DNA of 38,787 bases, taken from assembly GCF_003334385.1 (NCBI RefSeq), contig NZ_QOWN01000040.1; one strand, written 5' to 3'. Positions 24,001 to 27,000 of this stretch are shown piece by piece. Position numbers: made by a program. Numbering within the stretch: the stretch's first letter is position 1; each line of letters begins with the position of its first letter. Origin of the DNA: Escherichia coli (GTDB lineage: Bacteria; Pseudomonadota; Gammaproteobacteria; Enterobacterales; Enterobacteriaceae).

Positions 24001-27000
24001 GGCAGCAACTTGCGCTGGCCGCACGGCAGTATTACGGACAGCGCCTTGGCGAACTGTCACAGGCCATGAGCCAGGGGAGCGTAAGATGAAAGACGACAAC
24101 AGCATCGACGAAAAAAAACCGGCCCCCCGTCTCCGCCGCATCGGTGATATAGGGATAAATCTGTTCGCACCACTGGCCGAAACCCGCTGGATGCTGCGCA
24201 GCTGCCGCCATATGCTGGACCAGCATAAAACGCGCCTGAAGCGCCTCATGCCCGACCGGCAACCGGAGAGTCCGGTCTGTATGACCTGGGAGGAAGCGGT
24301 CAGGGCCAGCGGACTGACGGTCGACGAACTGGACCGGCGTCTGCGACGTCGCAGGATGTTCTGGCGGACAGGATTCTGGCTGATGATGATACCGGTACTT
24401 CTGCTGTGTGGTATGGCCCTTGCGGCCACCGCACTGCCGGTCATCACCCTGATACGTATCCTGGTCTGCCTGTTACTGATGAGCACCATTGCAGCACTGT
24501 GTGCCTCAAAAGCCCTGATTGCGTCATACCGCCTCTGGCAGCTGAATGAACGTCGGGTCAGCGAGGACGAACAGGGCACATTCCCCGATTACCTGCAGGC
24601 CCGGCACGGCTGGAAACAGGCCACATGGCTGGCCATTACCCACCGGCAGTACTGACTGTCCGGTCTGCAATTTCTTTTCCTCATTCCGGGGGCTGATGCC
24701 CGGGCATCCCCTTCGGTTCCGGAGTTACCGTGAAAATCATACCCAGAGCACTGAGTGCAGGTCTGGCGCTGGCTGCCGTACCTGCACAGGCTTTCGTCAC
24801 CTATCAGGACATTGTGAGTGCCGCCACCAATCCGGATGACCTGTCGCGCCAGGCACTGGTCACCATTTTTGGTGATGTGGTCACAAATCCCCTGACAGCC
24901 AGCAGCAACACCATCATTGGCAACCTGTTCATGGTGTTTAACGCAATTATCGCCACGATGGGGATAGTCTGGTTTCTGTTTATTGGTATCCGTCATGCTG
25001 TCCGCACGGGACACCAGGGCAGTGTCTTTAACAACGGACGGGACGTCGTCGGCATACTCAGTGTCGTGAGTGGATTTTTGATGATTGTGCCCACCGCTTC
25101 CGGCTGGAGTCTGGCGCAACTGGTCATGCTGTGGGGCGCATCCATCATGGGCATCGGTTCCGCCAATATCATGGTTCAGACAGCGGCAGAAAACATTGCT
25201 GAAGGCTATTCAATGACCGTACAGCCAGTACATGTCTCCACCCGCACGGCAGCACGGGGAATTCTGGAGATGGAACTGTGCAAACACGCCATGAATACGG
25301 GCCTCAATGACTTTAACCGTACCGCACGTTCATCCACGCCGCCCATGAGCGAATCCTCACGGACAGAGAATGGCAGATATACCGTCACCGTCTCAAATGG
25401 CAGCGCCACCTGCGGGAGTGTGAGTCTCTCCGTGAAAGGAAACGGCAGTAACAAGCAGTCCGCGCTGGCCCATTTTTTCAATCCCTTCATTGAAACGGAA
25501 TATCAGGGGGTTCTGAGGGCACAGCGCTCCGCCATGGATACCATGCTCCGTGACCTGGACAGCGCGGCGCAGGAATTTGTGTCAGCGTACCGGACCCGGC
25601 GCGACACGGGTAACGGCAACCTGCCGGATATTGAAAGCCGTATTCAGAAGGCTGCCAACAGGTATGAAGAAACGGTGCAGAAGGCGTTGCCAACAGATAA
25701 CGCAGAAACTGAGCGCAGGGAGCAGCTGAAATCCTACCTGACCACCTACGGCTGGGTTGCCCTGGGCGCCTGGTACCAGACCTTTGCCACCGCCAACCAG
25801 CGACTGGCTGAACTGGCCGACCGTGCTCCTACAGTGAGTGGCGTCTCGTCACTGGGCGAAGCCGGGGATACGGAATTCCTGAAGGAAGTCAAGGGGGCTT
25901 ACCAGGCACAGCTACAGAACTCAGCGTATACTCCTGCACTGGGAACAACCACCTCTGCCAGTGAATACCACGCATCTAATACTCAAAATCCTCAATCAGC
26001 CCTGTTAGAGTTCATAGGGCCAGGGTTAACTCGATTTTCAAATAAAGTAGCAATCATACATTCAGGAACAGGAACAACGAGTCAGCAGGCAAATCCTCTG
26101 CTGAAGATGAAGGACATTGGTGATTACACCATGGTCACAACCGAAACCATCTGGGCGGGTTATACCACCGTCAGGGTGCTTTCTACTGCCGGCAGCAACT
26201 CCGTTTTTGGCCGACTGGTCAATGCCGTCAGCGGCTTATCTGATGCAGCAAAGGCTTTTCTGGAGGCCTCCGCACCACCACTCTACTTCCTGCTGTTTTT
26301 GCTGTTCTGTGCCGGTTTTTCGTTATCTATTTACCTGCCGTTTATCCCGTTTATCTTCTGGATGACCGGCATCGGCAACTGGATAGTCAGCGTACTGATT
26401 GGATGTGCTGCTGGCCCCCTGTGGGCCGCCACCCATCTGGGAACAAGTCAGGACCGGGGAAGCCGGGCCGCTTACGGTTACATCTACCTGATAGACAGCA
26501 TGATCAGACCGCTGCTGATGGTGTTCGGGTTCTTTTTTGCATCAGTCGCCATCGTGGCCGGCGGCACAATCCTGAATGCGCTGTATGCTGCTGCACTGAT
26601 GAATGTCCAGATAAACTCTGTGACGGGCGTGTTCAGCATGGCGGGATTTTTGATGATTTATGCCCGCGCCTGTACCACACTGGTTGCAGCCGTTTTTGCG
26701 CTTCAGGCTTATCTGCCTGACCATGTAATTAATTTTCTGGGCGGACGTGACGGTGTTAATATGTTGGGGAATATGGTTTCTTCAGTCAAAGATATTATTG
26801 CCGGAGGTAATACCAATATGCGCAGAACACCTGGCGTTCGTGAAGAAAAACTGAAAAATATTAATAGAGATGATAAAGACGGAATAAAACAATAAAATGA
26901 AAACATAGAAAAACCAATAAAACAGCATTGCCATATTCACCTGAAGAGTTTAAAATATATTCAGGTGAATATGGAGGTTTATTATGAACAAAACAAAAAG

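What the first reader, a model, noticed from the sequence alone, without database searches (positions are those of the whole stretch)
26936..26983. Perfect 10-bp inverted repeat overlapping the excA promoter region
TTCACCTGAA-N14-TTCAGGTGAA ends 14 bp before the excA start in an AT-rich leader. It has no downstream T-tract on either strand, so it looks more like a dimeric repressor operator controlling entry exclusion than a terminator.
Basis: seen in the sequence. Interest (0 to 1): 0.25.

Follow-up and report, generated by a model that had tools for sequence, protein, structure and literature searches.

The report
Promoter-embedded hairpin upstream of excA
The inverted repeat in front of the plasmid's entry-exclusion gene excA is real and conserved, but it behaves like an RNA hairpin wrapped around excA's own promoter, probably muting excA translation on messages that read through from the transfer operon, rather than like a repressor binding site.

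Summary
The repeat is real and longer than reported. It has perfect 15-bp arms, CCATATTCACCTGAA (26931-26945) and TTCAGGTGAATATGG (26960-26974), with a 14-nt loop. No shuffle of the window gave arms this long.

It sits around a sigma-70-like promoter. The -35 TTGCCA overlaps the left arm by 3 nt, the -10 TAAAAT lies in the loop, and the predicted start (~26963) lies inside the right arm. The right arm ends in the first two G of the excA Shine-Dalgarno GGAGG.

Across 13 distinct junction variants from IncK/B/O/Z/I plasmids and metagenomes, both hexamers are invariant. The stem varies with compensation: 7 of 15 pairs change on both sides and 96% of cells stay paired. ColIb-P9/R64-type plasmids use a different stem, CCTCCCC pairing with GGGGAGG, in the same layout. 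No second site exists in a related 112-kb plasmid.

Best reading (confidence ~0.55): a fold-back hairpin forms only in traY-to-excA read-through mRNA and masks the ribosome-binding site. Transcripts from excA's own promoter lack the left arm. This resembles IS10's protection from outside promoters. The operator idea is not supported. Promoter activity, transcript starts and the effect on translation are all untested. Interest is modest.

The parts
24730..26895 (+). traY (DotA/TraY family). It is the gene upstream of excA in the co-directional tra gene array; stop codon TAA at 26893-26895.
   Evidence: ORF list; TIGR04346 529.6 bits; annotation of a 98% identical plasmid.
26928..26933 (+). Predicted -35 hexamer TTGCCA of the excA promoter; its last 3 nt are the first 3 nt of the left arm.
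   Evidence: Promoter scan, 10 of 12 with a 17-nt spacer; invariant in 13 of 13 distinct variants.
26931..26945 (+). Left (5') arm CCATATTCACCTGAA. It lies in the promoter spacer, upstream of the predicted transcription start.
   Evidence: the repeat finder I2, 15 nt, 100% complementary; covariation with the right arm.
26946..26959 (+). 14-nt loop GAGTTTAAAATATA, which contains the -10 hexamer.
   Evidence: Loop positions flanking the hexamer vary between plasmids while the hexamer does not.
26951..26956 (+). Predicted -10 hexamer TAAAAT.
   Evidence: invariant in all variants and also present in ColIb-P9-type junctions.
26960..26974 (+). Right (3') arm TTCAGGTGAATATGG. The predicted transcription start (A26963 or G26964, 7-8 nt after the -10) lies inside it, and its last two bases are the first GG of the Shine-Dalgarno.
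   Evidence: The transcription start is inferred from promoter geometry, not measured.
26973..26977 (+). Shine-Dalgarno GGAGG of excA, 6 nt before the ATG.
   Evidence: Sequence; the predicted cost of opening it is higher in the read-through transcript.
26984..27634 (+). excA, an IncI-type entry (surface) exclusion protein of 216 aa.
   Evidence: NF033891 254 bits; PGAP annotation of homologues.
27667..27699 (+). Intrinsic terminator after excA: a 9-bp stem AGCCGGTTT/AACCGGCT followed by a T run. It is the only convincing + strand terminator between 11 kb and 28 kb, so transcripts that cross traY should run through excA.
   Evidence: an equivalent terminator follows excA in L019 and L022.

Best explanation
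The repeat encodes a + strand RNA hairpin built around excA's own constitutive sigma-70 promoter. The left arm lies in the -35/-10 spacer, the -10 lies in the loop, and transcription from this promoter should start inside the right arm.

Two kinds of excA mRNA follow from this layout.
1. Short transcripts from the excA promoter lack the left arm and have an open 21-nt leader, so ExcA is made whatever the state of the transfer genes.
2. Transcripts that read through from traY carry both arms. There is no terminator between traY and excA. These transcripts fold back, and the stem takes in the first GG of the Shine-Dalgarno and sits inside the 30S binding track. Translation of excA from tra-operon mRNA is therefore damped. 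The stem may also pause RNA polymerase ahead of the UUUAUUAU run.

The net effect is that ExcA dosage is insulated from tra-operon expression.

Shown by computation: the repeat, its conservation, the covariation, the invariant hexamers, the lack of an intervening terminator and the predicted accessibility difference. Inferred: promoter activity and start site, the existence of read-through RNA, folding in vivo and the effect on translation.
For: - The arms are 15 bp and perfect; none of 60 shuffles gave arms this long. The RNA fold has z = -5.5.
- The junction is shared by about 465 PLSDB plasmids typed IncK2/Z, IncI-gamma/K1 or IncI1/B/O. The stretch between the traY stop and the -35 carries indels and substitutions, whereas TTGCCA through the ATG is conserved.
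- In 13 distinct variants from plasmids and metagenomes, 96.4% of cells are paired and 7 of 15 pairs change on both sides. Of 500 shuffles, 0 reach the observed pairing or covariation, and slid controls give 29-44% paired. RNAalifold independently predicts the same helix.
- Both promoter hexamers are invariant and the spacer is 17 nt in all 13.
- Divergent excA lineages (ExcA 43-58% identical) keep the layout with other stem sequences. L020 has CCATAAACACTCA/TGAGTGTTTATGG. In L023 the helix extends over the whole Shine-Dalgarno. The ColIb-P9/R64 type has CCTCCCC(A)TCG pairing with CGAGGGGAGG, a full anti-SD.
- The predicted cost of opening SD..AUG, read-through versus own-promoter transcript, is 9.3 vs 5.4 (window), 10.2 vs 5.8, 12.7 vs 8.5, 16.8 vs 5.8 and 12.5 vs 3.5 kcal/mol. 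The real upstream sequence beats 98-100 of 100 shuffled upstreams in every lineage, z = 3.3-8.1.
- All four interior one-sided stem changes give G.U on the + strand and C.A on the - strand: 96.4% against 94.4% paired.
- A terminator follows excA and none lies between traY and excA.
[quoted passage not shown] That the structure forms only in transcripts entering from outside promoters is from my own knowledge of that paper.
Against: - I could reach no measured transcription start, promoter activity or translation data for excA in any IncI-complex plasmid.
- In the window's lineage only 2 of 5 Shine-Dalgarno bases are in the conserved stem, and the predicted penalty is modest, about 4 kcal/mol.
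- More distant excA loci (Enterobacter, Citrobacter, Yersinia plasmids) have a promoter-like site but no SD-pairing hairpin, so the device is not universal.
- Covariation proves selection for pairing, not that the paired molecule is mRNA. The strand asymmetry is weak: four events against one.
- The three TTGCCA lineages share the never-varying outer five pairs, so involvement of the Shine-Dalgarno has only about two independent origins.
- Why selection should damp translation from read-through mRNA is speculation (ExcA overdose in derepressed donors?).
Confidence: 0.55

Rival explanations
1. The hairpin marks or protects an RNA end. It could stabilise the 3' end of traY/tra-operon mRNA against exonucleases, or act as a weak, non-canonical terminator or pause site that limits read-through into excA. 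Its overlap with the Shine-Dalgarno would then be incidental, a result of the cramped 88-nt intergenic region.
For: A stable conserved stem lies 36 nt after the traY stop. In the window lineage a U-rich run, UUUAUUAU, begins 3 nt after the stem. Intergenic hairpins that stabilise upstream cistrons are established knowledge (for example REP elements in malE-malF).
Against: The terminator scan does not call it: the loop is 14 nt, the base of the stem is AU-rich and no U tract abuts the stem. The U-rich run is absent after the stem in the L023 and ColIb-P9 lineages. This reading does not explain why the 3' arm ends in or covers the Shine-Dalgarno in every lineage, nor why the ColIb-P9 version is a literal anti-SD.
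Confidence: 0.2
2. One reading: the repeat is a DNA operator bound by a dimeric repressor that controls the excA promoter.
For: A dyad-symmetric site spans the predicted -35 to +12 of the promoter, the classic position for repression. The neighbouring ORF 27908-29494 has a sigma-70 region-4-like HTH.
Against: The arms co-vary instead of keeping a half-site, and ColIb-P9-type plasmids have an unrelated stem in the same layout. One-sided changes give G.U on the + strand, which breaks DNA dyad symmetry. There is no second site in the window or in a 112-kb relative. Half-site centres are 24 or 29 bp apart. The HTH gene is missing next to identical junctions in other plasmids.
Confidence: 0.07
3. 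A DNA-level structure: the palindrome extrudes as a cruciform under negative supercoiling and switches the embedded promoter off or on. This would be a supercoiling-sensitive promoter.
For: The palindrome is perfect and lies across the promoter spacer. Compensatory changes preserve pairing on both strands to a similar degree, 96.4% and 94.4%.
Against: A 14-nt central spacer makes extrusion kinetically unfavourable (established knowledge of cruciform energetics). L023-type and ColIb-P9-type versions have short or interrupted stems with loops of about 20-28 nt. Interior G.U-only changes would be C.A mismatches in the other hairpin of a cruciform.
Confidence: 0.05

Closest known systems
IS10/Tn10 protection from external promoters ('fold-back inhibition' of transposase translation; Davis, Simons & Kleckner 1985, cited in PMC13181058)
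   Same: The gene's own promoter starts transcription downstream of a segment complementary to its ribosome-binding site. Only transcripts entering from outside carry that segment and fold back over the translation signals. The purpose is to insulate gene dosage from upstream transcription.
   Different: Here the gene is an entry-exclusion gene at the end of a conjugative transfer operon, not a transposase at an IS end. The -10 hexamer sits in the hairpin loop. In the window's lineage only two Shine-Dalgarno bases are in the conserved stem. Nothing has been tested experimentally.
Palindromic operators of dimeric repressors overlapping promoters (for example LacI, TetR or phage-repressor-type sites)
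   Same: A perfect dyad placed over the -35 to +1 region of a promoter.
   Different: The arms are not conserved as a recognition sequence but co-vary. There is a long 14-bp spacer and non-integral helical phasing. No further sites and no linked repressor gene were found.
Rho-independent terminators and intergenic mRNA-stabilising hairpins
   Same: A stable stem-loop just downstream of a stop codon in a polycistronic unit.
   Different: No adjacent U tract, a large loop and an AU-rich stem base. A promoter is embedded in it and the 3' arm reaches into the next gene's Shine-Dalgarno.
Separate promoters for exclusion genes inside transfer operons (F-plasmid traT; from my own knowledge, not checked here)
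   Same: An exclusion function expressed independently of the regulated tra operon in which it is embedded.
   Different: No fold-back hairpin is known to me for traT. ExcA is unrelated to TraT and TraS.

Membership tests
Fold-back (anti-SD) insulation from read-through transcription, IS10 type | A 5' segment complementary to the ribosome-binding region lies upstream of the gene's own transcription start. | tested here: inconclusive
   The left arm (26931-26945) lies between the predicted -35 and -10. The start at about 26963 is inferred from an invariant TTGCCA-17-TAAAAT. No start site has been measured.
Fold-back (anti-SD) insulation from read-through transcription, IS10 type | The 3' segment of the helix covers the Shine-Dalgarno and/or the start codon. 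| tested here: met
   The right arm ends in the first GG of GGAGG in the window. The whole Shine-Dalgarno is paired in L023-type and ColIb-P9-type junctions.
Fold-back (anti-SD) insulation from read-through transcription, IS10 type | The helix is under selection (covariation). | tested here: met
   7 of 15 pairs change on both sides, 96.4% of cells are paired and 0 of 500 shuffles reach this. RNAalifold gives the same helix.
Fold-back (anti-SD) insulation from read-through transcription, IS10 type | Upstream transcription actually enters the gene. | tested here: inconclusive
   No terminator-like site lies between traY and excA, and the first good one is after excA. No RNA data were available.
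Fold-back (anti-SD) insulation from read-through transcription, IS10 type | Translation is lower from read-through than from own-promoter transcripts. | not testable with these tools
   There are only predicted opening energies: 9.3 vs 5.4 kcal/mol in the window, and up to 16.8 vs 5.8 in relatives.
Operator of a dimeric repressor | Dyad symmetry overlapping a promoter. | tested here: met
Operator of a dimeric repressor | The half-site sequence is conserved among homologous promoters. | tested here: not met
   The arms differ and co-vary between lineages, and the ColIb-P9 type has an unrelated stem.
Operator of a dimeric repressor | Further sites exist, or a linked cognate regulator gene. | tested here: not met
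   No second inverted pair in the window or in the 112-kb pB20123_2. The neighbouring HTH gene is not co-inherited with the junction.
Operator of a dimeric repressor | A protein binds the site. | not testable with these tools
   Needs EMSA or pull-down.
Rho-independent terminator | A G+C-rich stem, a short loop and a U tract directly after the stem. | tested here: not met
   Not called by the scan. The loop is 14 nt, 6 of 15 pairs are G-C, and the stem is followed by AGG before the U-rich run.
Any curated RNA family (Rfam 15) | A match at or above a family's gathering score. | tested here: not met
   Only sub-threshold chance hits, E = 0.28-0.57, over the hairpin.
Single-strand DNA promoter of incoming conjugative DNA (Frpo type) | The transferred strand is the template strand of the gene. 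| tested here: not met
   In pB20123_2 the leading genes ssb, psiB and ardA are on + and excA is on -. By inference the transferred strand is the sense strand of excA.

The most novel reading that the evidence does not exclude
The hairpin may be a conditional switch rather than a passive insulator. On tra-operon read-through mRNA, excA translation would stay locked until a trans factor opens or stabilises the helix. Candidates are a small RNA or the plasmid's ProQ/FinO-family RNA chaperone, which is annotated in the related plasmid. The level of entry exclusion would then be tuned to the conjugation state of the cell, for example in new transconjugants during transitory derepression. Nothing here excludes this reading, and nothing specifically supports it.
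Probability: 0.08. Interest if true: 0.6.

Novelty: new member of a known kind. Interest (0 to 1): 0.33.

Why it matters
IncI1, IncK, IncB/O and IncZ plasmids are major carriers of ESBL and other resistance genes. Entry exclusion shapes which plasmids can enter a cell and how many copies accumulate. In the IncL plasmid pOXA-48, loss of excA abolished exclusion and raised both copy number and transfer from colonies (PMC12365149).

A covariation-supported cis element showing that ExcA output is set by its own promoter, and shielded from the regulated tra operon, would explain how exclusion can stay constant while transfer genes are repressed or transiently derepressed. It also gives a compact, easily mutated handle for testing what happens when that insulation is removed: the -10 in the loop, and arms that can be changed and then compensated.

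It also corrects gene-start annotation in some records and adds an unannotated conserved RNA structure to these plasmids.

Tried and rejected
- **Other copies of the half-site.** The 10-mer with up to 1 mismatch gives 6 hits in the window against 2.9 expected; 11 of 100 shuffles do as well. The 15-mer with up to 3 mismatches gives three extra hits, all inside ORFs and without partners. The whole 112-kb relative has one stray exact 10-mer and no second inverted pair. I found no evidence for a regulon.
- **Terminator.** Not called, and the anatomy is wrong.
- **Rfam.** Nothing above noise.
- **Single-strand promoter on incoming DNA.** Rejected because the transferred strand is inferred to be the sense strand of excA.
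- **Coupling to traY termination.** The stop codon is 36 nt from the stem, and this distance varies by up to 19 nt between plasmids. That is too far and too variable.
- **The outer helix in the single-sequence fold** (AAACC/GGUUU and CAUAG/UUAUG). The upstream partner is not conserved, so I did not rely on it.
- **Known global-regulator boxes** (CRP, LexA, Fur, FNR). I saw no match, but this was by eye and from memory only.
- **The neighbouring sigma-70 region-4/TnsA-like gene as a cognate repressor.** It is not linked to the junction in other plasmids.
- **Literature on an excA promoter or transcription start.** Nothing was found in the held library. The Salmonella 4/74 dRNA-seq papers and the R144/R64 exc sequence papers are not held.
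- **The metagenome pattern scan.** It was loose: only 36 of about 120 loci were true junctions, and the rest were discarded.
- **Variation within the ColIb-P9 lineage.** The core is invariant, so it adds no covariation.

Full report
**Observation**

The window reads ...TTGCCATATTCACCTGAAGAGTTTAAAATATATTCAGGTGAATATGGAGGTTTATTATG.... The reported 10-bp repeat is present at the stated coordinates. The complementarity extends to perfect 15-bp arms, CCATATTCACCTGAA (26931-26945) and TTCAGGTGAATATGG (26960-26974), around a 14-nt loop.

It ties for the longest perfect inverted repeat in the window. In 60 dinucleotide-preserving shuffles the longest arm was 13. As RNA the region folds at -25.7 kcal/mol, z = -5.5.

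The flanking genes are traY (24730-26895) and excA (26984-27634). The window comes from an IncK2/Z-type member of the IncI complex: about 465 PLSDB plasmids share this junction.

**Anatomy**

The best + strand sigma-70-like site in 17 kb is TTGCCA (26928-26933), a 17-nt spacer, then TAAAAT (26951-26956). This places the features as follows:
- The -35 overlaps the first three bases of the left arm.
- The left arm fills the spacer.
- The -10 lies in the loop.
- The predicted start (about 26963) lies inside the right arm.
- The right arm ends in the first GG of the Shine-Dalgarno GGAGG (26973-26977), 6 nt before the ATG.

No terminator-like site separates traY from excA. A good one follows excA at 27667-27699, and the same holds in distant relatives.

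**Comparative evidence**

I aligned 18 plasmid junctions. The stretch between the traY stop and the -35 carries substitutions and indels of up to 19 nt. From TTGCCA to the ATG the sequence is nearly fixed.

A metagenome pattern scan added 36 true junctions. Together these gave 13 distinct 50-nt variants. In them:
- Both hexamers are invariant, while loop positions next to the -10 vary.
- The stem varies with compensation. The L013 type changes AA->GT on the left and TT->AC on the right. The L020 type swaps five pairs.
- 96.4% of cells are paired and 7 of 15 pairs change on both sides.
- Of 500 shuffles, 0 reach the observed pairing or covariation. Structures slid by 1-3 columns give 29-44% paired.
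- RNAalifold predicts the same helix on its own.

Four interior one-sided changes all give G.U on the + strand and C.A on the - strand; one change at the loop-closing pair goes the other way. Pairing is 96.4% on the + strand and 94.4% on the - strand. This is weak evidence that the selected molecule is the sense RNA.

**Divergent lineages**

excA loci whose proteins are only 43-58% identical keep the same layout with other stems:
- L020 has CCATAAACACTCA/TGAGTGTTTATGG.
- In L023 the helix extends upstream of the -35 and covers the whole Shine-Dalgarno.
- In the ColIb-P9/R64 type (NC_002122 is identical over the junction), the spacer holds CCTCCCC, which pairs with the Shine-Dalgarno GGGGAGG itself. 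TAAAAT again lies in the loop.

More distant loci in Enterobacter, Citrobacter and Yersinia plasmids have a promoter-like site but no such helix.

**Interpretation**

What is conserved is pairing between the promoter spacer and the ribosome-binding region, not a recognition sequence. That argues against an operator.

There is no second inverted pair in the window or in the complete 112-kb relative pB20123_2.

The layout implies two mRNA species:
1. Promoter-proximal transcripts that lack the left arm.
2. traY read-through transcripts that carry both arms.

The predicted cost of opening SD..AUG is higher in the read-through form in every lineage. It is 9.3 vs 5.4 kcal/mol in the window and 12.5 vs 3.5 in the ColIb-P9 type. 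It also exceeds nearly all controls with a shuffled upstream, z = 3.3-8.1.

This is the logic described for IS10, where the transposase translation signals are sequestered in RNA secondary structure (PMC13181058, citing Davis et al. 1985). That the IS10 structure forms only in transcripts from outside promoters is from my own knowledge of that paper.

I therefore read the repeat as a fold-back insulator. It lets ExcA be set by its own promoter and damps its translation from tra-operon mRNA.

**Limits**

- Promoter activity, the start site, read-through and the translational effect are all inferred.
- In the window's lineage only two Shine-Dalgarno bases are in the stem and the predicted penalty is modest.
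- The rationale for damping is speculative.
- A role as a 3'-end stabiliser or pause site for tra mRNA remains a live rival.
- An operator and a cruciform are unlikely. A single-strand promoter is rejected on strand orientation.
- No Rfam family matches, and I found no description of this element in the held literature.

**Verdict**

- It is a new member of a known kind of cis-regulatory device.
- It is of modest interest.

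Noticed in passing
window 31633-31666: This is the other 15-bp perfect inverted repeat in the window: TCATTAATGCCTCAT, a 4-nt loop, then ATGAGGCATTAATGA. 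It lies 20 nt beyond the 3' end of a - strand ORF (31687-33231) and has no adjacent T run on either strand.
   Followed up: no
window 31687-33231 (- strand): A 514-aa ORF in the accessory region between excA and trbA matches phosphoethanolamine-transferase models (CptA, EptA, MCR) only far below their cut-offs: 102 bits against 404. It is a sulfatase-superfamily relative, not a called MCR.
   Followed up: partly
window 27908-29494 (+ strand): The gene directly after excA encodes a 528-aa protein that combines a sigma-70 region-4-like HTH (residues ~132-200) with a TnsA-endonuclease-like domain (~332-440). It is present next to excA in some plasmids and replaced by a HEAT-repeat gene or hha in others.
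   Followed up: partly
L020 (NC_025180) 471-497: PGAP starts excA at an ATG inside the right arm of the hairpin, 24 nt upstream of and in frame with the ATG that follows GGAGGG. The annotated start is probably too early.
   Followed up: partly
L018 (NZ_CP023144 pEGY2) ~locus 600; L011 (NZ_CP075698) locus 1-327: There are IS1 insertions at this junction. One interrupts excA about 17 codons in. The other truncates traY but leaves the promoter, hairpin and excA intact.
   Followed up: no
L023 (NZ_CP051420) ~locus 525-555: In this IncI1 lineage the helix continues upstream of the -35. TATATGACTT pairs with AGGTCATATA, so the whole Shine-Dalgarno and the spacer to the ATG are paired. The predicted opening cost is 16.8 vs 5.8 kcal/mol.
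   Followed up: partly
window 36025-36061 and 36251-36280: Two more long perfect inverted repeats lie upstream of trbA (36952-38259). The first is CGCAAAAAAACCG-N11-CGGTTTTTTTGCG, which looks like a bidirectional terminator. The second is AAGGGCAGAGGG-N6-CCCTCTGCCCTT.
   Followed up: no
L148-L150 (NZ_CP142932, whole plasmid): Single copies of TTCACCTGAA with up to 1 mismatch are more frequent than in mononucleotide shuffles: 21 against 6.5. All are singletons. I suspect codon-usage words (TTC, ACC, CTG, GAA) rather than binding sites, but I did not check where the ≤1-mismatch copies fall relative to genes or test it with a codon-aware null.
   Followed up: partly
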